From contig CAZBLE010000002.1 in NCBI GenBank assembly GCA_964492735.1, positions 64,135 to 128,134 on the forward strand: 64,000 nucleotides of DNA, read 5' to 3'. Under the pieces are notes generated by a model, which was not told where the DNA came from, did not search any database, and saw only the letters and a program-made list of their open reading frames with translations. This document shows, in pieces, positions 2,520 through 60,099 of the stretch (positions are counted from its first letter, which is position 1; each line of letters begins with the position of its first letter). The stretch is from an uncultured Gammaproteobacteria bacterium. GTDB taxonomy: Bacteria; Patescibacteriota; Patescibacteriia; UBA9570; XYC2-FULL-38-9. Made by a program: the position numbers and the translations under genes.

Positions 2520-2606
2520 GCGCGGGTGGCGGAATTGGTAGACGCGCAGGCTTGAGGGGTCTGTGGGAATTTTACTCTCGTGGAGGTTCAAGTCCTCTTC
2601 CGCGCA
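2520..2606 (+). tRNA. tRNA-Leu(GAG): tRNA-Leu (anticodon GAG), class II with a long variable arm.
   Basis: Acceptor stem GCGCGGG pairs with (U)CCGCGC. Anticodon stem CAGGC/GUCUG with loop UUGAGGG. T-arm GAGGTTCAAGTCCTC. Discriminator A. CCA is not encoded. Confidence 0.8.
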
Positions 2607-2704: not shown

Positions 2705-2781
2705 GGGCGCTTAGCTCAGTTGGCTAGAGCACCTCGTTTACACCGAGGGGGTCGGGGGTTCGAGCCCCTCAGCGCCCACCA
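2705..2781 (+). tRNA. tRNA-Val(TAC): tRNA-Val (anticodon UAC), with encoded CCA.
   Basis: Acceptor stem GGGCGCT/AGCGCCC. D-arm GCTCAGTTGGCTAGAGC. Anticodon stem CCTCG/CGAGG with loop TTTACAC. T-arm GGGGGTTCGAGCCCCTC. Ends ACCA. Confidence 0.85.
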
Positions 2782-7895: not shown

Positions 7896-9392
7896 ATGAT
7901 TCAAAAGATGGATAAGGCGAGGTCTTGGTTTGCGGAGTGCTTTAAGCAGGTTAATTGGATGGATTGGAACATCCTCAACGTGCTAACCTTCGTCGTCGGC
8001 ACACTCTTCTTCGGGACGTTGCTGACGGTCATTGAAGGCCTGTCCATCACGGATGGAGTCTTCATGGTCACTTCGGCTCTGTGCGTCACGGGGCTCTCGA
8101 GCGTCGACTTCTCGCAGTTCACTCCGGCCGGTCAGATTCTCATTGCCCTCTGCATCCAGATGGGTGGGTTGGGAATCGTCACGTTTACTTTGCTGGCGGG
8201 CAGCTACATCGTGACTGGTTTGTCAAAGCGTGAGTCTGTTGCAGCGCTGCTGACCAGCGCTTTTGAAACGGACGACCACAAGTCTGCGCGGTACATGCTC
8301 TTCAGCGTGATCCTGCGGTATACGCTGCTTTTTGAAGGCGGCGGAACCCTGATCATGGGAGCATGGCTCCAGTGGGTCAACACCACAACCTTGTCCCCGG
8401 GCCAAAATCCGTGGACCTGGGCGTTTTTCCATTCCATTTCCGCGTTCAACAACGCAGGGTTTGGCATGGAAAGCGACAACCTGATGAAGTTCGCAGGAGA
8501 CCCGGTTATCAACGGTGTCATTGGCGGGCTGATTATCGCTGGAGGAATCGGCTACACTGTCATCCTCGCAGCTCACGTCTGGGTCCTGCGCCGTCTCGGA
8601 AACGGTGATAACTATCAGCAGCTGTTCGAGAAGCTGGTAGCTTCGCCAGTGCAGATCATCATCGCCCGGCGTGGCACGGTCCTGCTCCTTGCCGTTGGAA
8701 CTTTTGTGCCTCTCGTCATCGAGTGGAACAATCCGATGTTCAAGGACTTCAACACGTTCAGCATGCTGCTAGCAACCTGGTTCAACACCGGCGTGAGCCC
8801 GCGAACGGCAGGCTTCAACACCATTGATTTCAGCCAGTTGCATCCAACGACGCTTTGGCTAACCATTGCGTTGATGTTCATCGGCGCAAACCCTGGCGGC
8901 ACTGCGGGCGGGATCAAGATCCCGACCATGTACGTGCTGTGGGGCTACCTGCGCAACTGGCACCGTGAGCCTGGTGCGCACGTCATCGTTGCACATCACA
9001 TGGTGAGCGGGCGCACGGCCAAAAACGCCATCAACCTTTTCTTCTTCAGCGTCATTTGGGTTGGTATCGCAACCTTCCTGGTGACGGGCGCAGAAGAGTG
9101 GCGGATGGCTGAGGATCCGCGGATCAATCCGCTGGCGCTGCAATTTGAGGTCGTCAGCGCCTTCGGAACAGTTGGACTCAGCTTGGGACACCCGAGCGTC
9201 CCGTACTCGCTCTCTGGTGTGCTGTCCACCTTCAGCAAGTGGGTCATTATTCTCACCATGCTGATCGGTCGCCTCGGTCCGTTGACGTGGCTCGGGCTCT
9301 GGCCGTGGCCGCACAATGAGACAGCAGAGGGTGAAGATGCAGATCTCGATCCCGAAGCTCCTCGTGAGCCGGAGAAGCTGCAGATCGGCTGA
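7896..9392 (+). CDS. trkH: TrkH/KtrB-family cation (K+) transporter, paralog 3. It is GC-rich and probably a xenolog.
   Basis: About 50% identical to paralog 2 (ALCVTGLSSVDF, NNAGFGM, GGIGYTV, TAGGIKIPT), and it shares the C-terminal ...EKLQIG. The coding GC is visibly ~60%, against ~40% in the flanks. ATG 7896 is preceded by GGAGA. The ORF-track start at 7884 is a TTG. Confidence 0.85.
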   Translation: MIQKMDKARSWFAECFKQVNWMDWNILNVLTFVVGTLFFGTLLTVIEGLSITDGVFMVTSALCVTGLSSVDFSQFTPAGQILIALCIQMGGLGIVTFTLLAGSYIVTGLSKRESVAALLTSAFETDDHKSARYMLFSVILRYTLLFEGGGTLIMGAWLQWVNTTTLSPGQNPWTWAFFHSISAFNNAGFGMESDNLMKFAGDPVINGVIGGLIIAGGIGYTVILAAHVWVLRRLGNGDNYQQLFEKLVASPVQIIIARRGTVLLLAVGTFVPLVIEWNNPMFKDFNTFSMLLATWFNTGVSPRTAGFNTIDFSQLHPTTLWLTIALMFIGANPGGTAGGIKIPTMYVLWGYLRNWHREPGAHVIVAHHMVSGRTAKNAINLFFFSVIWVGIATFLVTGAEEWRMAEDPRINPLALQFEVVSAFGTVGLSLGHPSVPYSLSGVLSTFSKWVIILTMLIGRLGPLTWLGLWPWPHNETAEGEDADLDPEAPREPEKLQIG

Positions 9393-28048: not shown

Positions 28049-28123
28049 TGGTACTCGCAAGGGGAATCGAACCCCTATTGCTAGGATGAAAACCTAGTGT
28101 CCTAACCATTAGACGATGCGAGC
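28049..28123 (-). tRNA. tRNA-Glu(TTC): tRNA-Glu (anticodon UUC), with encoded CCA.
   Basis: The reverse complement reads GCTCGCATCGTCTAATGGTTAGGACACTAGGTTTTCATCCTAGCAATAGGGGTTCGATTCCCCTTGCGAGTACCA, with anticodon loop TTTTCAT. Confidence 0.85.
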
Positions 28124-46270: not shown

Positions 46271-46347
46271 GTCATGAATTTGGTGTCAGAGGAGAGATTC
46301 GAACTCTCGACCCCGGGCTTATGAGTCCCGTGCTCTAACCAACTGAG
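46271..46347 (-). tRNA. tRNA-Met(CAT): tRNA-Met(CAU), elongator-like. It could instead be tRNA-Ile2 (the lysidine-modified CAU-anticodon form). CCA is encoded.
   Basis: The reverse complement reads GTCAGGGTAGCTCAGTTGGTTAGAGCACGGGACTCATAAGCCCGGGGTCGAGAGTTCGAATCTCTCCTCTGACACCA, with anticodon loop CTCATAA. Confidence 0.8.
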
Positions 46348-46428
46348 CTACCCTGACAAAGGGAAAATAACCGTAGATGCATCTTCAAGTGACGCAAAGT
46401 CGATTATAAACGCGATTTTGGATTTTGT

Positions 46429-47562
46429 CTAGCCCTGACTGTGTTGTGTCTCTGAGCTTTTTGCATAGCTGCGACTCGCAAGATATGTGGTAATTGGAAC
46501 CGCGAGAATCAGTGCTGTGCTACCAACGATTGTGCGAGCAATCTCTTCTGCTAAAAATTGACTGTTAATAGAAACCCAAAATGGTTGTGTTTGGACCTGG
46601 AACAACAAAATAAGTGGTAGTGAAGATCCAGCATATGCCAATACAAGAGTATTAATGAGTGATGCAATATGCTCTCGGCCAACGCGCATGCCTTTCGTAA
46701 ACAAGTCTTTAAATTGCAGCCGTGGATTGGCATCATGAATTTCTTCAATGGTTGCAGTCAGGGCAGTGGTGACATCATCAAGCACACCAAGTACACCAAT
46801 GATCATGCCGACAAGCAATAAGCCCTTCATATTAATTGTGCCGTTATAGGCAGATTGTGCAAAAAATGCATCTTCAGTTCCTTTGCCAAATAGCTTTGTA
46901 ACCCAAATTGCAAAACTGGAAAAAGCGAAAGCGAGCGCAATGGTGATAATTGTTCCTTGAACTGCAAGGACTGTTTTTTTTGTGATTCCGTGCGCCATGA
47001 AGATGGCAATAACTCCAATGCACACTGCACCAATTCCACCAACAACAACCGGGTTCATGCCTTTTGCAATTTGTGGAACAATAAGATACATCAGCAAGCT
47101 AAAAGAAAATCCAAGTCCCGCAAAAGCAGCAATTGATTTGCGCCCGCCAACAATGACTGCGATGGCAATAAAAATCAGCGTTAAAATAATGACGCCAGTC
47201 AAACGATAGTGATCTGTGATGTAAAACAAATCTTGTGATTCATTTTGTACTTTCAACAAGACTACTTGGTCATTTTTTTTAAAATCTCGTTCTGGTCCGT
47301 CGTCAGGATTTTTAACTTGTTGAATATCACGTGTTTGTGTATTGCCATTTGCGTCGCAGCAGTATTGCACGGTAAATGTTTGTTCTGGCCCATCAGTTGG
47401 GGAGAGGCTATTGCGTACATTTATAACAGTGCCACGAAAGTACTGTAATTCAGAATCTGCTGCAGGAGGAGCAACTGTCGTAGTTTGTGCGTTCGCGGAC
47501 ACAGGCAAGCCGCCGAGGTAGAGGATAATGCTGAGAAAAAAGAAGAGTCGATACATGCTCAC
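46429..47562 (-). CDS. YibE/F-like polytopic membrane protein with an N-terminal extracytoplasmic domain.
   Basis: A signal/anchor, then a ~100-aa hydrophilic domain, then 8 TM helices. Confidence 0.4.
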   Translation of the reverse strand: MSMYRLFFFLSIILYLGGLPVSANAQTTTVAPPAADSELQYFRGTVINVRNSLSPTDGPEQTFTVQYCCDANGNTQTRDIQQVKNPDDGPERDFKKNDQVVLLKVQNESQDLFYITDHYRLTGVIILTLIFIAIAVIVGGRKSIAAFAGLGFSFSLLMYLIVPQIAKGMNPVVVGGIGAVCIGVIAIFMAHGITKKTVLAVQGTIITIALAFAFSSFAIWVTKLFGKGTEDAFFAQSAYNGTINMKGLLLVGMIIGVLGVLDDVTTALTATIEEIHDANPRLQFKDLFTKGMRVGREHIASLINTLVLAYAGSSLPLILLFQVQTQPFWVSINSQFLAEEIARTIVGSTALILAVPITTYLASRSYAKSSETQHSQG

Positions 47563-47588: not shown

Positions 47589-48554
47589 CTAGTTTGTGCA
47601 GTTCATGGCCGCAGAAAGATTTTGTAGATTTTCTCGCATAATATCAGCATAGGTTGTTCCAGTGTCTTTTTGTTCAGGAGTGAGGCCTTCAATTGGATTC
47701 AAGACTGTTGATTGAGCGCCAACTTCTTGCGCAATGGCTTGAGAAAGTTTTGGGCTTGTGAGGGTTTCAAAGAAAATTGTGCGGATATTTTTTTCTTTTG
47801 CGAGCGTCGCAAGATCTGCTAAGTGACTTGCAGATGGTTCTGATTCAGATGAAATGCCGGCAATAGAATGAACGGTAATGCCATATCGTGCGCCAAGATA
47901 TGAAAAGGCATCGTGAGCGACAATGATTTCTGGAGTTGTGCATTGTGTGAGTGTCGTGCGGTACTCAGCGTCGAGTTCTTCAAGTGTTTTGATGTAGGTA
48001 TCTGCGTTTGATCGGTATTCTGCTGCATGTGCAGGATCTGCAGCAATGAACGCGTCACGCACAATAGCGGCTTCTTGTTGGAGTAATACAGGGTCAAGCC
48101 ATGTGTGTGGATCTTTTGGACCCTCTTCACGTTCTTCTTCTGAGCCTTCTTCGTTGCCAATATGCAGAGCTTCAGAAGTGTCACGGAGCGTCATTGTTTT
48201 TGTCACCTCAACCGTTTGAACGTTTTGTTCAGCGAGTTGTGGGGCAAGTTTTTCCGCCCATGCATCAAGGCCAGCGCCATGATACAGGAAGAGAGAAGTG
48301 TCATAGAGCGCTGCAGTATCACGAGCAGTGGGTTCAAAATCATGAATCTCAATCCCGGGTTTTACAATTGATGTGACAGTGACATGCTCTTTACCAATCT
48401 GCTGTGCGAGTTCTTCTAAGATATAGTATGAAACTCCAACGTAGAGTGTTTGTGTGTCTGATTCAGGTGTTGTTGAGCGAGTCTGATAGGCAATGGCTAT
48501 TCCGGCTCCAATAACAAGGAGTGTGATGAGTGTAATAAAAAGATATTTTTTCAT
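47589..48554 (-). CDS. znuA: Metal (Zn/Mn) ABC transporter substrate-binding protein, ZnuA/TroA cluster-9 family.
   Basis: A signal peptide, the conserved HDFEP and PHTWLDP motifs, and a His/Glu-rich flexible loop (HIGNEEGSEEEREEGPKDPH) as in ZnuA. Confidence 0.85.
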   Translation of the reverse strand: MKKYLFITLITLLVIGAGIAIAYQTRSTTPESDTQTLYVGVSYYILEELAQQIGKEHVTVTSIVKPGIEIHDFEPTARDTAALYDTSLFLYHGAGLDAWAEKLAPQLAEQNVQTVEVTKTMTLRDTSEALHIGNEEGSEEEREEGPKDPHTWLDPVLLQQEAAIVRDAFIAADPAHAAEYRSNADTYIKTLEELDAEYRTTLTQCTTPEIIVAHDAFSYLGARYGITVHSIAGISSESEPSASHLADLATLAKEKNIRTIFFETLTSPKLSQAIAQEVGAQSTVLNPIEGLTPEQKDTGTTYADIMRENLQNLSAAMNCTN

Positions 48555-48560
48555 ATCTTC

Positions 48561-48589
48561 AGACTAACGCAACTCAGTTGCATTTGCAA
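48561..48589 (-). promoter_or_regulatory. znuA promoter with an embedded palindromic operator (GCAACTCAGTTGC).
   Basis: On the minus strand: TTGCAA (-35, 48589-48584), a 17-nt spacer holding the palindrome at 48569-48581, then TAGTCT (-10, 48566-48561). About 7 nt separates it from the ATG. Confidence 0.55.
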
Positions 48590-48624
48590 GGGGAATGTGT
48601 GGAAAACAGAAAATCCTCTTTAGT

Positions 48625-49065
48625 TTATTGGCAATTTTTACACACCCCGACAAATTCGAGAGAGTGATCTAAGACACGAAACCCAGTTTGTTTTTTAATA
48701 TGTTTGCTTGCTGCAATGAGTTCTTGTGGCATATCAACATCTGCAACGGCGCCGCATTCAATGCATTGGATGTGATGATGATGACTACCAAGGGCGAGTT
48801 CATACCGCTTCATTTGCTCGCTCCCAAACTGGATTTCTTCAATGAGTTTTTCAGAAAGTAAAAATTCCAGTTCGCGATAGACTGTTGTTTTGTTGACAGT
48901 GAGTTTTTTGCGTTCCAAACCTTTGAGGATTTCTTGAACAGTCAGTGGAATGTGTGATGAGAAAAAAATACCAAGGACAGCTCGACGAGTCTGGGTAATT
49001 CGATGGCCTTTGTCGCGTAATGTTTCAATAACCGCTTCTGGCGTTGTCGATTCAGCATGTTTCAT
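48625..49065 (-). CDS. zur: Fur-family metalloregulator (likely Zur).
   Basis: A winged-helix N-terminus, an HHHH motif, and CIECG...CKNC (a structural Zn site). It is adjacent to znuA. Confidence 0.8.
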   Translation of the reverse strand: MKHAESTTPEAVIETLRDKGHRITQTRRAVLGIFFSSHIPLTVQEILKGLERKKLTVNKTTVYRELEFLLSEKLIEEIQFGSEQMKRYELALGSHHHHIQCIECGAVADVDMPQELIAASKHIKKQTGFRVLDHSLEFVGVCKNCQ

Positions 49066-49451
49066 ACGGTTGTTGTATGCAATTTTGCCGTGAAAGTCAA
49101 TCCTTGGTCAATCAGAAATTGAGATAGAATAACATCAACAGTTTCTGGCGTGTAAAACTCACATTGAATCATGTTTCTGTGCACTTTCGCTTCTAGATCT
49201 CGTAAGAGTTGCTTTGGCGGCGATGTTTTTTTGTACAGGCAAAGTGTTGGTTTTTGGGTGAGCAACATATGGGTGATAATAAATCGAATTTCCTGTGATG
49301 GTTCTGTGACTTCTAAAACGACCGCGTCAATACTTTTAAAAAAATCTACTGCTATTTTTTCTCGAGCATACACGTGAATATTATTTTGGTTACAAAAAGT
49401 TTCTATTCCGCGGTTATTCAGCTTTTCAGCTAGATATATTTGCATAGTCAT
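49062..49451 (-). CDS. Hypothetical Rossmann-like protein (nucleoside 2-deoxyribosyltransferase-like fold?).
   Basis: IYLAEKL...DAVVLEVTEPSQEIRFIITHMLLTQKPTLCLY resembles the N-deoxyribosyltransferase-like pattern. It overlaps the zur start by 4 nt (ATGA). Confidence 0.3.
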   Translation of the reverse strand: MTMQIYLAEKLNNRGIETFCNQNNIHVYAREKIAVDFFKSIDAVVLEVTEPSQEIRFIITHMLLTQKPTLCLYKKTSPPKQLLRDLEAKVHRNMIQCEFYTPETVDVILSQFLIDQGLTFTAKLHTTTV

Positions 49452-49578
49452 GCACTAAACTCTAAAGTAAAAAATCGTCAGGTGTAATCATTTTTCGCTG
49501 CTGTTACAAAAAAATATCCTAAAACATTGACGAAATTGGCTATATGATATACGACTATGTCAAATTATATTTTACAGT

Positions 49579-50340
49579 ATGTCCATCGACACAAAGAATA
49601 TTTTACGGCAAATCGGTTTTACAGATTCTGAAATTTTGATATATCTTGCTGCTATTCAGTATGGGCCAATGACTGTTATTGAGTTGGCAAAGCATTCTGG
49701 GCTCACTCGCCAAATGGTCTATACACTCCTGCCGCGTCTTGAAAAAGAAAGTTTAATGAAAGAAGTGCGGTCTGATAGTAAGCGTTTATTTGCAGCCACT
49801 GATCCAAAATTATTAGAAGATCGCGTAAACATGATTGCGCGTGATGTACGGTATGTGATTCCGCAATTACAAATGATGCATTCAGAGAATGCAATGTTAC
49901 CGATTATGACTGTTTATGATAATCCTTTGAGCATTCGGGAGTTGTATCGTCGTTTTATGAAAGAAGCTGTGCCAGAAGAAGATGTTCGTTTGTGGGTAAC
50001 GAATAAAGTGTGGGTGAGTATGGATGCCGATTATTTACGGACGTTTGTGCATTTTAAAAATAAGCATAGAATACGTGATTTAATTATTGCACCTGACACC
50101 AAAGAGTCGCGGTCATATGCAAAAGAAATGTTTCAACCGTATTCTGAGTACCGTTTTTTGAAAGATCATTGGAATACAAATGCAGAGAAATGGATCTGGA
50201 GAGATATTATTGTATACTTAACAATTAGCGATGAAGCAACAAATTTAATAGTCGTTGAATCACCCGCACTCGCAGCAATTGAACGGGCTGGGTTTGACGC
50301 TGTTTGGAGGTCATTACCAAAAGGGAGGAAGTCTATGTAG
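49579..50340 (+). CDS. TrmB-family transcriptional regulator.
   Basis: N-terminal HTH ILRQIGFTDSEILIYLAAIQYGPMTVIELAKHSGLTRQMVYTLLPRLEKESLM, plus a C-terminal TrmB-like domain. Confidence 0.55.
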   Translation: MSIDTKNILRQIGFTDSEILIYLAAIQYGPMTVIELAKHSGLTRQMVYTLLPRLEKESLMKEVRSDSKRLFAATDPKLLEDRVNMIARDVRYVIPQLQMMHSENAMLPIMTVYDNPLSIRELYRRFMKEAVPEEDVRLWVTNKVWVSMDADYLRTFVHFKNKHRIRDLIIAPDTKESRSYAKEMFQPYSEYRFLKDHWNTNAEKWIWRDIIVYLTISDEATNLIVVESPALAAIERAGFDAVWRSLPKGRKSM

Positions 50341-50491
50341 ATATTGATATGAGGCGTGAAGGTACAAAAATTTTGAGGAGGATATTTGTATCAGGTATAT
50401 TGTTTATCAAATAAGAAAGGGAACCAGCACGCCGACCCAACTCTGCTCAGTGAGGGAGGGTGGTCCTTGTGCTGGTTGGCGCGTTTATCTG

Positions 50492-51011
50492 TCAGGTCGC
50501 CGCGCGGTAGGTCGTTGCGCTGGGGCGGATGCAGAGCCAGTCATCGGGGTAGATCAGGTCGTCGTCAGTAAGGTTCGTCACAACGAACCCGGAGTTGATG
50601 ACGACCACATCATCGCCGTAGCGCTGCTTGAGCTCTTTCACCGTCCAACCAGCTTCTTCGCTGGCGATGGTGATCTGTGCGGCTCGGGGGTAGCGGAAGG
50701 TGATCCGCAGTCCAGCAGGGAGGGGGGTATCTCGGTTGAGGTCTTCGATGAGCTCGAGACCTTCGCCATCCGCGATTGCCAAGCCACGAATGTCTGCGAG
50801 GTCTTCTGCTTCCACGAGCTCCTCGAGAAGTTGACCGAGAGTCTGTCCCTCAAAGGTCTCTCCCGTTGCGATGCGGCCCCCGGCGCTCACCATCCGTCCC
50901 GTTCCCAGGACGATGTAGTTGCAGCCGCCGAGCTGCGTCATCGTGGCTGCCGCGAACATCGCACCAAGCCTAGTTAACAATCCTCTGCGTGTCAGGCTCA
51001 TAGGAGCGCCT
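50492..51011 (-). CDS. Twin-arginine (Tat) signal lipoprotein, hypothetical. GC-rich.
   Basis: AGGAGG lies 7 nt upstream of ATG 51011. MSLTRRGLLTRLGAMFAAATMTQLGGC gives an RR motif plus an LGGC lipobox. The C-terminal half is beta-grasp-like. Confidence 0.5.
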
Positions 51012-51413
51012 CCTGGTTTGTTTGCTCCGAAGATTTGTCGATGCGGCGCCATCAACAAATTTTGGCAACAAAAAAACCGGGCACAGCCGGAATATCAAAA
51101 ATATTCACATACGCTGTTTCCACTCCACGAGAAACGTCAGAAAAATCTTTGAACTGGACCTGGCTTATTCGCTCTTCCAGAGAAGGCGACATGACAGTTG
51201 CGGGTCAGCGCTGGGAATCACACCCAGACTTCCGTTGCAAAGAAGGTGACAAACTTCGAACAAAGAACGATAGTACAAGCACTATAACATAGTTTTTCAA
51301 TTACTACATCTAGTGTTATCCACAGAGAATAGGCACTATAGAGCGGATTTATTAATGAACGCCATTTTTTAGCAAAAAAATATGAAGAAGGGAATATGGT
51401 CATTGCTCCACTG

Positions 51414-52193
51414 TCAGTGAATGTGACCTTCTTCCTCTTCTTCATACACACGACCACTGTGGTCCGTGTGGTCGTGGTGCGCACCCGGCTTTACAATGTG
51501 ATGGTCAAAGCCGGCACGGAACTGGACCCCGAGGCTGCCGCACTTGCTCTGGCACCAGTCAGTGCCAGTAAAGCCTGCATGTGAACTCATGAGCATGAGC
51601 TCGTAGATTCCGCGGCTCATGTGTCCGGTTTCAAGGCGTAGCACGAGACCGATGTTTAGCTCAGCATAACTGACGCCGAAGAAGCTACTTGAGTGAGCCT
51701 CTGGTACAAATGCCGGTGCCCATTCAATCCGCGCACCAATGCCAAAGCTGCGGCGAGTCTCAATATGAGGCACAACTGTCAGCGCGATTTGCGCATCTTC
51801 AGCGTCCGCGTGGACCTCTAAGTCACCGTAGAGTCGGAAGTTGCCGCCTGGCAAGCCCCAGCGCGTGTCAATGACACCGCCGCCAGAGATTGCGACCCCA
51901 TTTTGTTCAAGATGCAGACCGAGAGCTGGCCCGATGTCAACTTCAAACCACTGGCCATTTTCTGTGTGGCCGTGGATGTCGAGGCCAGCGTGGCAATCTC
52001 CATGCCCAAGCAAAGTCCCATCAGAACTGGTGATACCAGATCCAACAAGGCCGCCGTGGCAGCCAATCGAAAAGGCAATGGGGATTTTCCCTTCTGCCTC
52101 ATGTGCATGCTCATCTTCTTCCGCGACTGCTTTCGCAAGCGGAAAAAAGAGCACGAAGAAAGAGCAGATAAACAACCGGACAATTGAACGCAT
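51414..52193 (-). CDS. Secreted His-rich (putative metal-binding) protein. GC-rich.
   Basis: A signal peptide. His clusters at both ends (EEDEHAHEAEG...; ...GAHHDHTDHSGRVYEEEEEGHIH) and many internal His/Asp residues. Its promoter shares the znuA operator. Confidence 0.5.
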   Translation of the reverse strand: MRSIVRLFICSFFVLFFPLAKAVAEEDEHAHEAEGKIPIAFSIGCHGGLVGSGITSSDGTLLGHGDCHAGLDIHGHTENGQWFEVDIGPALGLHLEQNGVAISGGGVIDTRWGLPGGNFRLYGDLEVHADAEDAQIALTVVPHIETRRSFGIGARIEWAPAFVPEAHSSSFFGVSYAELNIGLVLRLETGHMSRGIYELMLMSSHAGFTGTDWCQSKCGSLGVQFRAGFDHHIVKPGAHHDHTDHSGRVYEEEEEGHIH

Positions 52194-52265
52194 GGGAAGC
52201 CTCTATGGAAAGGGTGTTTTTTGCAAAGAACAAATGATTGATACAGCGACACAACAAGCGGCCGT

Positions 52266-52294
52266 ATCTTAATGCAACTTAGTTGCGTTTGCAA
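52266..52294 (-). promoter_or_regulatory. Promoter of the His-rich protein gene with the same embedded palindrome (GCAACTTAGTTGC).
   Basis: On the minus strand: TTGCAA (52294-52289), a 17-nt spacer holding the palindrome at 52274-52286, then TAAGAT (52271-52266). A 26-nt block is nearly identical to the znuA promoter at 48565-48593. Confidence 0.55.
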
Positions 52295-52347
52295 GGGGCG
52301 GATATTAAAAAAATGTGGACAACTGTCCAAAATGAGTGATGAGTGGA

Positions 52348-53220
52348 TTAGAGTGTGGAAGAATGAACGCCGCCGCTTTGTGCCCAATAGTCACGATAGA
52401 GCTGTGATAGCTCAAGAACTCTTGGCGTAATTGTTTCAAATACAAAATCATCAATTGATTTTATTGGCAACACTTTTGTGCTCGTGCTGGTGAGAAACGC
52501 GCCGTCGTATGAGCTGATTTCAGAAAGGTGAATTGGTCGCTGTTCAACAGACCAACCGTTTTGAATCGCAATGTCTTGCAGAACAATCTTTGTTACACCT
52601 TCAAGAATCTCTGCTTGCGGTGGGTGATAGAGGATTTTTTTATCTGTATTCACTGTAAAAAAATTAGTGCGCGTGCCTTCAGTGATTTCTTGGTTGCGAT
52701 TGAGCAAGAGTGCGTCATACGCGCCATGTTTTTTCGCTTCACGGTACGCCAAGTAACTGCCAAGCATTGCAAGAGTTTTCGCCTCTGGAAATGGCCGTTC
52801 ATATGAATGCGTAATCGTATGGCAACCGGTTTTATAGAGTTTCCGATCAACAAACAATGGAGCTGAAGCAAAGAGATAGAGTTGTACATCAGCGGGATTT
52901 GCTGCGCCCAGAAATAAGATTTTGATATTACATGTCTGAGCGATCGCAAGAGCGTGAGTAATAAATGTATTCAGCTGCTCAGTAATCTGCTGCGTTGTAA
53001 AGGCATGTTCAAGGTCAATGTGATGCGCGGAATGCAGTAGTCGATCAACATGTTGCTGCGTAAAATACGCAATACCATTTTCAATCCGAATGGTTTCATA
53101 GACCCCAAAGCCATATTCGAGTTCTGTGTTTGCGACTGGCAGGACAGCGTCAGCGGCTGGTAGGAGCTCGCCATTACGCATACAGAGTTGTTCAAGTGAG
53201 TGATTCATAGTCAGTTCCAT
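52348..53220 (-). CDS. Class IV (fold-type IV) aminotransferase (IlvE/Dat/PabC family).
   Basis: EGTRTNFF, the PLP-Lys region and EGVTK at the C-terminus. I place the start at ATG 53220 or 53208 to avoid a 146-nt overlap with the upstream HD gene. Confidence 0.7.
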   Translation of the reverse strand: MELTMNHSLEQLCMRNGELLPAADAVLPVANTELEYGFGVYETIRIENGIAYFTQQHVDRLLHSAHHIDLEHAFTTQQITEQLNTFITHALAIAQTCNIKILFLGAANPADVQLYLFASAPLFVDRKLYKTGCHTITHSYERPFPEAKTLAMLGSYLAYREAKKHGAYDALLLNRNQEITEGTRTNFFTVNTDKKILYHPPQAEILEGVTKIVLQDIAIQNGWSVEQRPIHLSEISSYDGAFLTSTSTKVLPIKSIDDFVFETITPRVLELSQLYRDYWAQSGGVHSSTL

Positions 53221-53821
53221 TCCATTCCGCGAGGAATTGTTGTTTATATTCTTCAAGGAGGCGATGTCGTTCATTGCCAATCCGTTGTCCGCTATCGGTG
53301 TTGAGTAAATCGCGTAACCGTAAGAGTTTTTCGTCAAAGTGAACGACTGTCGATTCTGTATCAGTCACGTTGTACATCGCGCGACCAGTAGCACCGCCAT
53401 AGGCAAACGCTCGACCAATACCAATCGCGCCCATCGCATCCAATCGGTCAGCGTCTTGAACACACTTGCCTTCAAGTGATTCCATGTTTTTCTTGCCGCC
53501 TGAACCGCTGAATGACACCTTTTCAACAATCTCAGAAACAATAACTGCAGTTGCTTCATCACCACCAGCTGCCAGAATCATTTCTTTGGCCATTCGTGGG
53601 CCAATTTCACGATCACCATTATGAAATTTATGGTCGGCAATATCGTGGAGCAGAGCAGCGAGTGTGACAATATACAGGTCGGCATTTTCACGAGCAGCGA
53701 TCCATTGAGCGAGTTTCACCACACGCTCTACATGTGACCAATCATGCCCACTTGAATCTCCGGCCATTGCAGCATGTGCTTGAGCTGTAATGGTTTCGAT
53801 GATGTTGTTATTGTTTTCCAT
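53192..53821 (-). CDS. HD-domain metal-dependent phosphohydrolase.
   Basis: HD motif (LLHDIADHKF) and a downstream DADRLDAMGAIGIGRAF motif. Confidence 0.65.
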   Translation of the reverse strand: MENNNNIIETITAQAHAAMAGDSSGHDWSHVERVVKLAQWIAARENADLYIVTLAALLHDIADHKFHNGDREIGPRMAKEMILAAGGDEATAVIVSEIVEKVSFSGSGGKKNMESLEGKCVQDADRLDAMGAIGIGRAFAYGGATGRAMYNVTDTESTVVHFDEKLLRLRDLLNTDSGQRIGNERHRLLEEYKQQFLAEWNGTDYESLT

Positions 53822-58896: not shown

Positions 58897-59178
58897 TTAT
58901 TCAGTTCGTTGTATCAGTGTTATTGTTCCATTATCACTAATGAAATTATCAAGCACAGGAATATCGGCGGCAGATCGAATTGTCCAGTTTAAGAAGGTGA
59001 TAAGAAGAGCGGCGATAATTGATGCGCCGACTGCATATCCAGCACCTTTTCCAATTGAAATAACAACATTCCATTTAAACGAAATTTGCTTTTCAATTTT
59101 TTTGTCGAGTTCATGAATTCGCTGAGAGAGCTGCTGTAGTTCATGTTCGAGTTCTTGTTCTTTTTTTATTTGTACCAT
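58897..59178 (-). CDS. Small coiled-coil plus TM hypothetical protein.
   Basis: MVQIKKEQELEHELQQLSQRIHELDKKIEKQ, then a TM helix. Native AT-rich codon usage. Confidence 0.35.
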   Translation of the reverse strand: MVQIKKEQELEHELQQLSQRIHELDKKIEKQISFKWNVVISIGKGAGYAVGASIIAALLITFLNWTIRSAADIPVLDNFISDNGTITLIQRTE

Positions 59179-59328
59179 ACGGAAAGTATAGAACAATTTG
59201 TATCAAATAGACAAAGTGCGGAGTGGTCAGTTCCGCCTGCGATTCGACTTCGGGGTGTTGTGTGAAGTGAGTCGCTTTTTTGACCGGTGGTGGTTGGCAC
59301 GGTGACGGCAGACTCCAGTACCCTAGGT

Positions 59329-59982
59329 TCAGCCGTTGAGACCGTGCACCGTGCGGAACGCCGGAAGAGTGCACAGGTGCTCGTACACTCCCCAGATCTT
59401 CGGCCACTTCTCCGAGACGGGGAGGCTGAAGCGGCTGATCGCCGCCCAGACCTCGGTGCCGAGGGTGATGTCGGCGAGCGTCAAGCGCTCGCCAACGCAG
59501 AAGTCTGGGTCGCTCTGGTGGAGCTTGAGCATCCTCTCGAGGGCGTCGAAGGCACGCCCTACCCAGAAGATCGACCAGCCGTTGGTCTCGGCCCTGCTGG
59601 TGTAGTGAGCTTCCTGCATCAGCCGCAGGAGCGGCTGGCGGTTGCCGAGCGGCCTCAGGTCCGAGTCCAGGAGCCGCATGATCTCCCGAACCCGGAAGCG
59701 CTCGAGTGTGCCTTCGCCCAGCAGCTGTGCCTTAGGACACAGCTCGGCGAAGTACTCCATGATTGCCCCACTTTGAGTGAGGACATCCTCCACCTTGCCG
59801 TGACCCGTCAGGTCGAGGGCAGGGACACGCTGGTTCGGGTTAATCGCCGTGAAGGCGCTCCCGAACTGCTCTTCTGCGGCCAGGTTGACTTCGATCAGTG
59901 TGTAGTTGATTCTGAGGAGGGCAAGGACGACGCGCACGGGCTTTGGGCCCCGTGCCGCTTCGCATGAATAGAGTTTCATCAT
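59329..59982 (-). CDS. Glutathione S-transferase (zeta/maleylacetoacetate-isomerase-like). GC-rich.
   Basis: GGAGG lies 6 nt upstream of the ATG. KLYSCEAARGPKPVRVVLAL...NPNQRVPAL...QSGAIMEYF gives the N-terminal thioredoxin-like GST domain plus a C-terminal helical domain. Confidence 0.7.
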   Translation of the reverse strand: MMKLYSCEAARGPKPVRVVLALLRINYTLIEVNLAAEEQFGSAFTAINPNQRVPALDLTGHGKVEDVLTQSGAIMEYFAELCPKAQLLGEGTLERFRVREIMRLLDSDLRPLGNRQPLLRLMQEAHYTSRAETNGWSIFWVGRAFDALERMLKLHQSDPDFCVGERLTLADITLGTEVWAAISRFSLPVSEKWPKIWGVYEHLCTLPAFRTVHGLNG

Positions 59983-60099
59983 GCACAACCTCCATGGTTG
60001 AGTGCAGAATTACCCTAAGCCGTCTCAGATATTTGGTCAACTGATGTATACGGAGTTTTTTAGCAAGCCGAGCGCACTATATGTGCTATACTATTTTTT

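What the first reader, a model, noticed from the sequence alone, without database searches (positions are those of the whole stretch)
48561..52298. An identical promoter-embedded palindrome links znuA and a distant His-rich secreted protein, suggesting a metal-responsive (Zur-like) regulon.
The 26-nt block GCAACT(C/T)AGTTGC(A/G)TTTGCAAGGGG occurs twice, at 48565-48593 and 52271-52298. Each time it has the same architecture on the minus strand: TTGCAA -35, then the perfect 6-1-6 palindrome GCAACTnAGTTGC filling the 17-nt spacer, then a -10 (TAGTCT or TAAGAT). One copy drives znuA. The Fur-family Zur gene is the next gene upstream in the same operon. The other copy drives a signal-peptide protein with His-cluster termini that sits in a GC-rich islet. 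A repressor site between -35 and -10 is the classic Fur/Zur arrangement. The box sequence is not the canonical AT-rich Fur/Zur box, so the binding specificity may be new.
Basis: seen in the sequence. Interest (0 to 1): 0.7.

Follow-up and report, generated by a model that had tools for sequence, protein, structure and literature searches.

The report
Zinc-repressor operator shared by two promoters
The repeated palindrome is most likely the DNA site where a zinc-sensing Fur-family repressor switches off two promoters, one for a zinc-binding uptake protein and one for an orphan histidine-rich secreted protein; the mechanism is textbook, but this version of the site is widespread across bacterial phyla and I found no paper describing it.

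Summary
GCAACTnAGTTGC(R)TTTGCAAGGGG occurs exactly twice in the window (48569-48593 and 52274-52298), against 0 expected by chance. Each copy is really a 9-1-9 palindrome, AAYGCAACTnAGTTGCRTT. It fills the 17-nt spacer between a -35 (TTGCAA) and a -10 (TAGTCT or TAAGAT) on the minus strand.

The Zur-like reading is strongly supported by comparative genomics:
- All eight independent lineages retrieved through the Fur-family protein alone carry the box in the promoter of zur or znuA. Three of them carry a second box just after the -10.
- Both orthologues of the His-rich gene keep the box.
In 75 of them the box lies directly upstream of a Fur-family gene or a gene of a zinc-uptake or zinc-associated type: ZnuA, a ZnuC-like ATPase, COG0523, a TonB receptor, MerC-like, DUF1826 or YibE/F.

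- znuA has its own promoter and is probably leaderless, so it is not simply in one operon with the regulator.
- The box is not special to this genome. It is used in several phyla.
- The regulator's sensing site has no cysteine and looks more like PerR or Fur than like characterised Zur proteins, so zinc specificity rests on the target genes.

Verdict: an ordinary mechanism, a new member of a known kind, moderate interest.

The parts
48566..48584 (.). Operator 1: 9-1-9 palindrome AACGCAACTCAGTTGCATT (plus strand). It fills the spacer of the znuA promoter and overlaps the first base of the -10 and of the -35.
   Evidence: The same box sits at the same promoter position in L002, L129, L005, L006/7 and L008.
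48584..48589 (-). -35 hexamer TTGCAA of the znuA promoter. More distant orthologues have TTGACA here.
   Evidence: Sequence. Aligned orthologous promoters.
48561..48566 (-). -10 hexamer TAGTCT, 17 nt after the -35. Only 6 nt separate it from the znuA ATG, so the mRNA is predicted to be leaderless.
   Evidence: Sequence. The layout -10, then 6-7 nt, then ATG recurs in more than 20 Fur-family genes in other phyla. The generic consensus scan does not call this hexamer, so the assignment rests on conservation.
47589..48554 (-). ZnuA-family metal-binding protein (321 aa) of the zinc type. This is target gene 1.
   Evidence: Pfam ZnuA, E=1.4e-78. The closest solved structures are the zinc-binding proteins YcdH 2o1e (E=3.9e-58), Lbp/Lmb and AdcA/AdcAII, and the His/His/His/Glu ligand positions align. 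These positions are conserved in all orthologues.
46429..47562 (-). YibE/F-family membrane protein (377 aa), 27 nt downstream of znuA and probably co-transcribed with it.
   Evidence: Pfam YibE_F, E=8e-68. It lies next to ZnuA/Fur in L002, L005, L006/7 and L129. The box lies directly upstream of YibE/F in L036 and L094.
48625..49065 (-). Fur-family regulator (146 aa), the proposed box-binding repressor. Its start overlaps the end of an upstream 129-aa ORF (49062-49451).
   Evidence: Pfam FUR, E=2.9e-24. Orthologues in other phyla are immediately preceded by the box.
52271..52289 (.). Operator 2: 9-1-9 palindrome AATGCAACTTAGTTGCGTT (plus strand), in the spacer of the promoter of the 259-aa gene.
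   Evidence: Conserved upstream of the orthologues in L129 and L130.
52266..52294 (-). Promoter of the His-rich gene: -35 TTGCAA (52294-52289), 17-nt spacer, -10 TAAGAT (52271-52266). The predicted 5' UTR is about 65 nt, with AGAGG before the ATG.
   Evidence: Sequence. A three-way comparison shows the promoter and UTR are conserved.
51414..52193 (-). Orphan secreted protein (259 aa). It has an N-terminal signal-like helix, a His/acidic N-terminus on the mature part, a His/Glu-rich C-terminus and a predicted all-beta core. This is target gene 2.
   Evidence: No Pfam or NCBIfam hit. Only 3-4 homologues exist in 5.8e9 and 1.8e9 protein libraries. Many invariant His and Cys residues. The AF2 model is low-confidence and all-beta.
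48598..48606 (-). TTTTCCACA, a DnaA-box-like element 8 nt upstream of the znuA -35. Function unknown; whether it belongs to the system is uncertain.
   Evidence: Conserved 7-8 or 18-19 nt upstream of the -35 in L129, L002 and L005; L139 has a near-match (GTATCCACA).
52314..52322 (-). TTGTCCACA, the same element 19 nt upstream of the -35 of the His-rich gene. In this genome it overlaps a small terminator-like hairpin that follows the aminotransferase gene.

Best explanation
The two palindromes are operators for the 146-aa Fur-family protein encoded next to znuA. That protein acts as a zinc-uptake repressor, that is, Zur-like.

Proposed mechanism: when metal-loaded, the dimer binds AAYGCAACTnAGTTGCRTT. 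The site occupies the whole -35/-10 spacer and touches both hexamers, so RNA polymerase is excluded. When zinc is scarce the repressor leaves and two transcription units are switched on:
1. A probably leaderless znuA-yibE/F unit, encoding a zinc-type binding protein and a membrane protein.
2. The gene for an orphan secreted protein rich in His and acidic residues, proposed to capture zinc outside the cell.

Shown here: the sites, their promoter geometry, their conservation, and their association across phyla with Fur-family genes and zinc-uptake genes.

Inferred, not shown: physical binding, repression rather than activation, and zinc as the effector.
For: 1. The repeat is far beyond chance and there are only two sites in 64 kb.

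2. Loci retrieved by the Fur-family protein alone, not by the motif, all carry the box at the zur or znuA promoter.
- L002 has the identical TTGCAAATGCAACTGAGTTGCGTTAGTCTG in an otherwise diverged spacer.
- L129 has it too.
- L005, L006/7 and L008 have one box in the spacer and a second just after the -10, with centres 22 bp apart.
- L131-133 have TTGACAC-n-TGCAACTAAGTTGCAT-TACACT-7 nt-ATG in front of a zur-znuA-znuC-znuB operon.

3. The promoter and box of the His-rich gene are conserved in both orthologous loci.

4. The scan of species genomes with the 19-mer gave 120 loci before hitting its limit. The genes immediately downstream include a Fur-family gene in 31 loci (22 with E<=1e-24 to the window protein, the ATG typically 11 nt after the box), a ZnuC-like ATPase in 17, MerC-like in 18, ZnuA in 9, COG0523 in 8, a TonB receptor in 6, and DUF1826 and YibE/F in 2 each. 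In total 75 of 120 loci have at least one of these.

5. The metagenome scan gave 13 loci, 8 with a Fur orthologue 10-13 nt downstream and 1 with ZnuA.

6. In a Peribacteria MAG (L082) the box lies between a COG0523 gene (cobW plus CobW_C) and a flavoprotein gene. COG0523 genes are hallmark Zur targets (PMC2770081).

7. ZnuA and all its orthologues have His/His/His/Glu ligand positions and a His/acidic loop, and are closest to the zinc-binding proteins YcdH, Lbp and AdcA.

8. 7-1-7 and 9-1-9 palindromes that overlap promoter elements, and double boxes at -35 and -10, are the described Zur architecture (review PMC6103462).
Against: - No experiment has been done, so binding and metal response are inferred.
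- The regulator scores far below every curated equivalog: Zur NF008646 gives 31 bits against a cut-off of 167, and the best hits are Bacillus-type Fur at 79 bits and PerR at 75 bits.
- Its closest solved relatives are PerR and Fur rather than Zur.
- It has only four Cys, in two CxxC pairs that form the structural site. Its sensing site therefore cannot contain the Cys found in Mtb, S. coelicolor, E. coli and B. subtilis Zur. The residues aligned to the PerR ligands D85, H91, H93 and D104 are E, H, H and D.
- In this genome no box precedes the regulator's own transcription unit, unlike most orthologues.
- 45 of the 120 genome hits have no recognisable zinc gene next to them.
- The generic sigma-70 scan does not call either promoter.
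Confidence: 0.8

Rival explanations
1. The DNA site and the Fur-family binder are as proposed, but the effector is not zinc. The protein would be a Mn/Fe- or peroxide-sensing Fur, Mur or PerR paralogue controlling a metal-uptake protein.
For: The best NCBIfam hits are Bacillus-type Fur and PerR, and the closest solved structure is B. subtilis PerR. The sensing site has no Cys and has the H/E/H/H/D-type ligand set typical of Fe/Mn sites. ZnuA-family proteins include Mn and Fe binders.
Against: ZnuA and all orthologues have the third ligand as His and a His/acidic loop, and are closest to the zinc-binding proteins YcdH, Lbp and AdcA rather than to PsaA or MntC. Box-associated genes include COG0523, DUF1826, TonB receptors and ZnuCB, which is the classic zinc set. 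No iron-siderophore, Mn-NRAMP or catalase/ahpC genes appeared among the clusters.
Confidence: 0.12
2. The box is the operator of a different regulator, for example the TrmB-like protein encoded between the two sites (49579-50340), and the Fur-family gene is merely a neighbour.
For: A TrmB/MarR-like HTH protein lies between the two copies and is also present in L129.
Against: The TrmB-like gene is absent from L002, L005, L006/7, L008 and L131-133, which all keep the box. The only gene consistently next to the box across phyla is the Fur-family gene, usually 10-14 nt downstream.
Confidence: 0.04
3. The block is a generic repeat (REP or MITE-like), a terminator hairpin, or a general promoter module of this lineage with no metal-specific role.
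For: The block lies just downstream of the Fur-family gene's stop codon and is a perfect inverted repeat. The shared CCCC-TTGCAA extends beyond the palindrome.
Against: There are only two copies in 64 kb and no weaker copies. A 6-bp stem with a 1-nt loop and no T-run cannot act as a terminator. All assessable copies in other genomes are intergenic, and 75 of 120 lie next to Fur-family or zinc-related genes. The box sequence stays constant where the flanking promoter hexamers vary.
Confidence: 0.02

Closest known systems
Bacillus subtilis Zur and its 9-1-9 Zur box at ycdH(znuA)/yciC
   Same: A Fur-family dimeric repressor and a 9-1-9 (7-1-7 core) palindrome overlapping promoter elements. The target is a YcdH-type zinc-binding protein, which is the window ZnuA's best solved match (2o1e). 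Double boxes at -35 and -10 are known for yciC (PMC6103462), as seen here in L005-L008.
   Different: The core half-site is TGCAACT rather than TCGTAAT (the latter from my own knowledge). The regulator here lacks the sensing-site Cys and scores below every curated Zur model. znuA is probably leaderless.
E. coli Zur-znuABC (structure 4MTD) and other RegPrecise-type Zur boxes
   Same: A metal-loaded repressor occludes the promoter, the site is palindromic, and Zur boxes are known to differ between lineages (PMC6103462).
   Different: The E. coli box is an AT-rich 23-bp site bound by a dimer of dimers. Here the site is a compact 19-mer containing GC. In my searches no paper paired 'zinc uptake regulator' with TGCAAC/GTTGCA strings, but the library lacks RegPrecise and subscription journals, so prior computational description, for example for Comamonadaceae or Flavobacteriia, cannot be excluded.
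B. subtilis PerR and Fur (closest solved relatives of the regulator)
   Same: The fold family, the structural Cys4 site, and a His/Asp/Glu-type regulatory site.
   Different: The target genes here are of zinc-uptake type, not peroxide-defence or siderophore genes.
ZepA, a Zur-regulated zinc-handling extracellular protein of Anabaena (PMC10957091)
   Same: A functional analogue for the 259-aa protein. Both are about 25-27 kDa, have a signal peptide, have a His/acidic tract at the mature N-terminus, are mostly beta, and carry a Zur box in the promoter.
   Different: There is no detectable sequence similarity, no PEP-CTERM tail, and an extra His/Glu-rich C-terminus. Zinc binding by the 259-aa protein has not been tested.

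Membership tests
Zur-type (Fur-family) zinc regulon | A Fur-family (PF01475) regulator is encoded in the genome, typically next to a target | tested here: met
   Pfam FUR E=2.9e-24, 70 nt upstream of znuA.
Zur-type (Fur-family) zinc regulon | A palindromic 7-1-7 or 9-1-9 operator overlaps the core promoter of the target genes | tested here: met
   A 9-1-9 box fills the 17-nt spacer at both promoters. The same geometry is seen in orthologues with canonical TTGACA and TATAAT-like hexamers.
Zur-type (Fur-family) zinc regulon | The operator is conserved upstream of orthologous targets in related genomes (phylogenetic footprint) | tested here: met
   8 of 8 protein-anchored lineages for znuA/zur and 2 of 2 orthologues of the His-rich gene.
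Zur-type (Fur-family) zinc regulon | The regulon contains zinc-uptake or zinc-sparing genes (ZnuABC, COG0523, TonB receptors and similar) | tested here: met
   ZnuA, ZnuC-like ATPase, COG0523, TonB receptor, DUF1826, MerC-like and YibE/F lie downstream of the box; 75 of 120 loci. ZnuA has zinc-type ligands.
Zur-type (Fur-family) zinc regulon | A sensing site with a Cys ligand, as in the characterised Mtb, S. coelicolor, E. coli and B. subtilis Zur proteins | tested here: not met
   There are only four Cys (CIEC and CKNC, the structural site). The residues aligned to the PerR regulatory ligands are E/H/H/D. Which residues serve as ligands in known Zur proteins is taken from my own knowledge and PMC6103462.
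Zur-type (Fur-family) zinc regulon | The protein reaches the score of a curated Zur equivalog model | tested here: not met
   NF008646 Zur gives 31.3 bits against a cut-off of 167. No Fur, PerR or Irr equivalog is reached either. It is a separate subfamily.
Zur-type (Fur-family) zinc regulon | Zinc-dependent binding of the protein to the box and zinc-dependent repression | not testable with these tools
   This needs EMSA or footprinting and reporter assays.
Classical AT-rich Fur/Zur box (GATAATGATAATCATTATC type) | Sequence match to the AT-rich consensus | tested here: not met
   The core is TGCAACTnAGTTGCA. The classical consensus is taken from my own knowledge.
Generic intergenic repeat (REP/MITE) | Many copies, with positions unrelated to promoters | tested here: not met
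   Two copies in 64 kb and no weaker ones. The assessable copies among the 13 metagenome hits lie at promoters of Fur-family or ZnuA genes.
Intrinsic terminator | A stable hairpin with a loop of at least 3 nt followed by a T-run | tested here: not met
   The arms are separated by 1 nt and no T-run follows. The terminator scan does not call it.

The most novel reading that the evidence does not exclude
The regulator represents an experimentally uncharacterised class of zinc sensors found in several phyla. This class would have a Cys-free, PerR/Fur-like sensing site, a TGCAAC-N3-GTTGCA operator, and ancestrally leaderless, autoregulated transcripts. In this uncultivated lineage it would additionally control a new kind of extracellular zinc-scavenging protein, the orphan 259-aa His-rich beta protein, which would be a ZepA analogue without homology. 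ZnuA may also work with the function-unknown YibE/F membrane protein rather than, or in addition to, ZnuBC.
Probability: 0.3. Interest if true: 0.6.

Novelty: new member of a known kind. Interest (0 to 1): 0.45.

Why it matters
- It gives a concrete, testable operator and regulon for a Fur-family subfamily that no curated model names. That subfamily is spread through uncultivated Patescibacteria-type bacteria, Bdellovibrionales and deltaproteobacterial MAGs.
- The same 19-mer also marks zinc-related genes in Bacteroidota, Campylobacterales and Comamonadaceae, so one motif could annotate zinc regulons in thousands of MAGs.
- It assigns a likely role, a zinc-starvation-induced secreted metal binder, to an orphan protein.
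- It points to a zinc-related function for the YibE/F family.
- The mechanism itself, promoter occlusion by a metal-loaded Fur-family dimer, is standard.

Tried and rejected
- Remote homology for the 259-aa protein. A word-indexed search of 5.8e9 proteins found only 3 homologues. A full HMMER search of 1.8e9 representatives found nothing beyond the family except one spurious 25-residue match.
- Structure of the 259-aa protein. AF2 on the 4-sequence alignment gave pLDDT 41.8, so I ran no fold search. I report only 'predicted all-beta, low confidence'.
- Literature. Searches for the box strings or for a Bacteroidetes/Flavobacteria Zur box found nothing relevant. The COG0523/Zur comparative paper does not cover these taxa. 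This is a weak negative: logos are figures, RegPrecise is not searchable here, and subscription papers are missing.
- YibE plus zinc. The literature search returned only irrelevant hits.
- Host taxonomy. Cluster look-ups gave no names. The nearest syntenic contigs are unnamed MAGs ('uncultured bacterium' CALKUP01; GCA_964608475.1). The nearest named relatives among motif hits are Peribacteria and Peregrinibacteria MAGs, at only about 40% protein identity. The host is therefore only tentatively a Patescibacteria-type bacterium.
- Rejected explanations. The terminator, generic-repeat and TrmB-operator readings are dealt with under rival explanations.
- Autoregulation in this genome. There is no box upstream of the 129-aa/Fur unit.
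- Data hygiene.
Total counts and the full taxonomic spread are therefore lower bounds, and the host genome itself was not among the loci returned.

Full report
OBSERVATION

GCAACTNAGTTGC occurs exactly only at 48569-48581 and 52274-52286. The 25-nt block that includes TTTGCAAGGGG occurs twice even when 3 mismatches are allowed, and never in 100 dinucleotide-preserving shuffles.

On the minus strand both copies read CCCC-TTGCAA-(17 nt)-TAGTCT or TAAGAT. The palindrome is longer than stated: it is a 9-1-9 unit, AAYGCAACTnAGTTGCRTT, at 48566-48584 and 52271-52289, the size class of Fur-family operators. A weight matrix built from 15 sites in loci retrieved by protein, not by motif, scores the two window sites 30.1 and 28.7 bits. 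The next best position scores 11.9, and the best in 50 shuffles scored 17.0. There are therefore exactly two sites in these 64 kb.

GENES

All of these lie on the minus strand:
- A 129-aa ORF with no family match (49062-49451), overlapping by 4 nt the start of the next gene.
- A Fur-family gene (48625-49065; Pfam FUR, E=2.9e-24).
- 70 nt containing the promoter and box.
- A ZnuA-family binding protein (47589-48554; E=1.4e-78).
- A YibE/F membrane protein (46429-47562).

Copy 2 lies about 65 nt upstream of a 259-aa protein (51414-52193) that has no Pfam or NCBIfam match. A TrmB-like regulator (49579-50340, plus strand) and a 188-aa ORF (50492-51058) lie between the two copies. The 50-52 kb stretch is GC-rich, at 0.508.

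znuA starts 6 nt after its -10 hexamer, so its mRNA is predicted to be leaderless. It has its own promoter rather than simply sharing an operon with the regulator.

COMPARATIVE TEST ANCHORED ON PROTEINS (UNBIASED WITH RESPECT TO THE MOTIF)

I retrieved homologues of the Fur-family protein and fetched their contigs.
- L002 (64% identity, syntenic): the spacer between fur and znuA has diverged, yet it contains the identical TTGCAAATGCAACTGAGTTGCGTTAGTCTG.
- L129: keeps both the znuA site and the site before the His-rich orthologue. L130 keeps the latter.
- L005, L006/7 and L008 (50-56% identity): the znuA promoter is TTGACA-[box]-TAAAAT, TAAGAT or TATAAT-[second box], with box centres 22 bp apart. 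This is the double-box arrangement described for S. coelicolor znuA and B. subtilis yciC (PMC6103462).
- L131-133 (42-45% identity; L131 comes from a protein that NCBI names as from a Deltaproteobacteria bacterium MAG): TTGACAC-n-TGCAACTAAGTTGCAT-TACACT-7 nt-ATG heads a zur-znuA-znuC-znuB operon.

So 8 of 8 independent lineages carry the box at the promoter of zur or znuA. In the more distant ones the flanking hexamers are near-consensus, which validates the weaker TTGCAA and TAGTCT assignments in the window. A generic promoter scan misses those.

TEST ANCHORED ON THE MOTIF

Scanning one genome per species (185,579 species) for AAYGCAACTNAGTTGCRTT hit the limit of 120 loci. A uniform-composition estimate would give a few tens of matches in the whole collection. 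That estimate is my own arithmetic, not a tool result.

The hits come from Patescibacteria-type MAGs (Peribacteria, Peregrinibacteria, Moran-, Falkow-, Uhr- and Magasanikbacteria), Bdellovibrionales, deltaproteobacterial MAGs, Flavobacteriales and other Bacteroidota, Campylobacterales and Comamonadaceae. Most sites are intergenic.

I clustered the ORFs that start within 250 nt downstream of the box and checked representatives against Pfam:
- Fur-family: 31 loci, 22 of them with E<=1e-24 to the window protein. A separate Comamonadaceae-type cluster, related to this family only by my reading of its sequence (no Pfam or phmmer hit), adds 4 loci.
- ABC ATPase: 17 loci.
- MerC-like small membrane proteins: 13 plus 5 loci.
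- ZnuA: 9 loci.
- COG0523 (cobW plus CobW_C): 8 loci, including a Peribacteria MAG, L082.
- TonB-dependent receptor: 6 loci.
- YibE/F: 2 loci.
- DUF1826: 2 loci.

In total 75 of 120 loci have at least one of these.

The Fur-family genes show a fixed layout, TTGACA-box-TAnnnT-6 nt-ATG. That is an autoregulated, leaderless promoter with the operator in the spacer.

A second scan, of metagenome contigs, used the lineage-specific variant TTGCAAAYGCAACTNAGTTGCRTTA. It gave 13 loci: 8 with a Fur orthologue 10-13 nt downstream, 1 with a close ZnuA homologue, and the rest cut by contig ends or without a called gene downstream. No hit suggests a generic repeat.

WHICH METAL?

The target genes point to zinc. 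ZnuA's closest solved relatives are B. subtilis YcdH (2o1e, E=3.9e-58), Lbp/Lmb and AdcA/AdcAII, and the His/His/His/Glu ligand positions align. All orthologues keep these positions and carry a His/acidic loop. COG0523 genes are hallmark Zur targets (PMC2770081).

The regulator's own sequence does not settle the question:
- It reaches no curated equivalog. Zur scores 31 bits against a cut-off of 167; the best hits are Bacillus-type Fur at 79 bits and PerR at 75 bits.
- Its closest solved structures are PerR and Fur.
- It has only the four structural Cys, so the sensing site lacks the Cys typical of characterised Zur proteins. The residues aligned to the PerR ligands are E/H/H/D.

I therefore file it as 'works like Zur' with high confidence. 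Membership of the characterised Zur clades is not shown.

THE HIS-RICH PROTEIN

This is an orphan family with 3-4 members, all in close relatives of the host. The alignment shows:
- a signal-like N-terminus;
- a His/acidic tract at the start of the mature part;
- many invariant His and Cys residues, for example HGDCHAGxDIHGH;
- a His/Glu-rich tail.

AF2 gives a low-confidence all-beta model (pLDDT 42), so I attempted no fold comparison.

The closest functional precedent is ZepA, a Zur-regulated secreted zinc-binding exoprotein of about 27 kDa with a His/acidic N-terminus (PMC10957091). There is no sequence relationship between the two. Zinc capture outside the cell is an inference.

RIVALS

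- A Mn/Fe- or peroxide-sensing paralogue. This is plausible from the protein sequence, but the target genes contradict it.
- The TrmB-like protein as the binder. That gene is absent from most loci that keep the box.
- A generic repeat or a terminator. Copy number, context, and a hairpin geometry with a 1-nt loop and no T-run all argue against this.

NOVELTY

The mechanism is the standard Fur-family promoter-occlusion model. Three things are not standard:
- The half-site TGCAAC, shared across several phyla. I found no paper describing it, but RegPrecise-type catalogues could not be checked.
- The Cys-free sensing site.
- The leaderless layout, the orphan secreted target, and the ZnuA-YibE/F pairing.

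I rate it a new member of a known kind, of moderate interest.

SIDE OBSERVATIONS

- About 300 nt of non-coding DNA (roughly 51085-51345, minus strand) is about 95% identical to L002, although the neighbouring proteins are only 44-64% identical. It contains a sub-threshold AdoCbl-riboswitch match (51102-51260; 32.7 bits against a gathering score of 50; E=3e-4) followed by a hairpin and T-run just before the 188-aa ORF.
- A DnaA-box-like element, TTnTCCACA, lies 7-8 or 18-19 nt upstream of the -35 of the box promoters in the window, L129, L002, L130 and L005; L139 has a near-match (GTATCCACA). The two spacings differ by one helical turn. Its role is unknown.
- No ZnuB or ZnuC gene is present in the window or in the syntenic loci. 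L094 has box-YibE/F-ZnuC-ZnuB and L062 has ZnuA-ZnuC-ZnuB.

Noticed in passing
window 51085-51345 (minus strand); core 51102-51260: About 300 nt of non-coding DNA is about 95% identical to L002 9000-9330, although the neighbouring proteins are only 44-64% identical. It holds a sub-threshold AdoCbl (cobalamin) riboswitch match (RF01482, 32.7 bits against a gathering score of 50, E=3e-4) followed by CCGGCTGTGCCCGG plus a T-run, just upstream of the 188-aa ORF (50492-51058), which by my reading has a TAT-type signal. It is probably a B12 riboswitch controlling that gene.
   Followed up: partly
window 48598-48606 (-), 52314-52322 (-), 51316-51324 (+); L129, L002, L130, L005, L139: A DnaA-box-like element, TTnTCCACA, lies 7-8 or 18-19 nt upstream of the -35 of the box-bearing promoters and is conserved in the orthologous promoters (L139 has only a near-match, GTATCCACA). 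The two spacings differ by one helical turn. There are only 3 copies in the window, which matches chance in number (3.5 expected) but not in placement. The binding factor is unknown.
   Followed up: partly
window 48552-48566; loci: The znuA ATG lies 6 nt after the -10, so the mRNA is predicted to be leaderless. The same layout, -10 then 6-7 nt then ATG, is seen for more than 20 Fur-family genes in Patescibacteria-type, Bdellovibrionales and deltaproteobacterial MAGs.
   Followed up: partly
window 46429-47562; L002, L005, L006/7, L129, L036, L094: A YibE/F-family membrane protein of unknown function is consistently linked to ZnuA and the Fur-family gene. In L036 and L094 the box lies directly in front of it. 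No ZnuB or ZnuC gene is present in the window or the syntenic loci, although L094 has YibE/F-ZnuC-ZnuB. This suggests a zinc-related role for YibE/F.
   Followed up: partly
L082 5639-5657 (Candidatus Peribacteria MAG): The box lies between a divergent COG0523 GTPase gene and a 368-aa Pyr_redox_3 flavoprotein gene whose product ends in CCGDECVC. Homologous flavoprotein genes follow the box in L097 and L118, so this is a possible unrecognised regulon member.
   Followed up: no
L072, L074, L089, L120, L049, L112 and other Bacteroidota loci: In Bacteroidota the box typically lies between a 208-aa ABC ATPase gene and a small MerC-family membrane protein gene (18 loci in all). MerC-like proteins may be zinc-regulated transporters there.
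   Followed up: no
window 52316-52329 (-): A terminator-like hairpin, TGGACAGTTGTCCA followed by CATTTTTTT, lies right after the class-IV aminotransferase gene (52348-53337). It overlaps the TTGTCCACA element upstream of the His-rich gene's promoter.
   Followed up: no
window 8001-9000 and 59001-60000: Two further GC-rich kilobases (0.567 and 0.563, against about 0.42 typical for the window), similar to the 50-52 kb islet. They were not examined.
   Followed up: no
window 2520-2606, 2705-2778 (+); 28052-28123, 46284-46357 (-): Four tRNA genes were found by Rfam. One lies directly downstream of the YibE/F gene.
   Followed up: no
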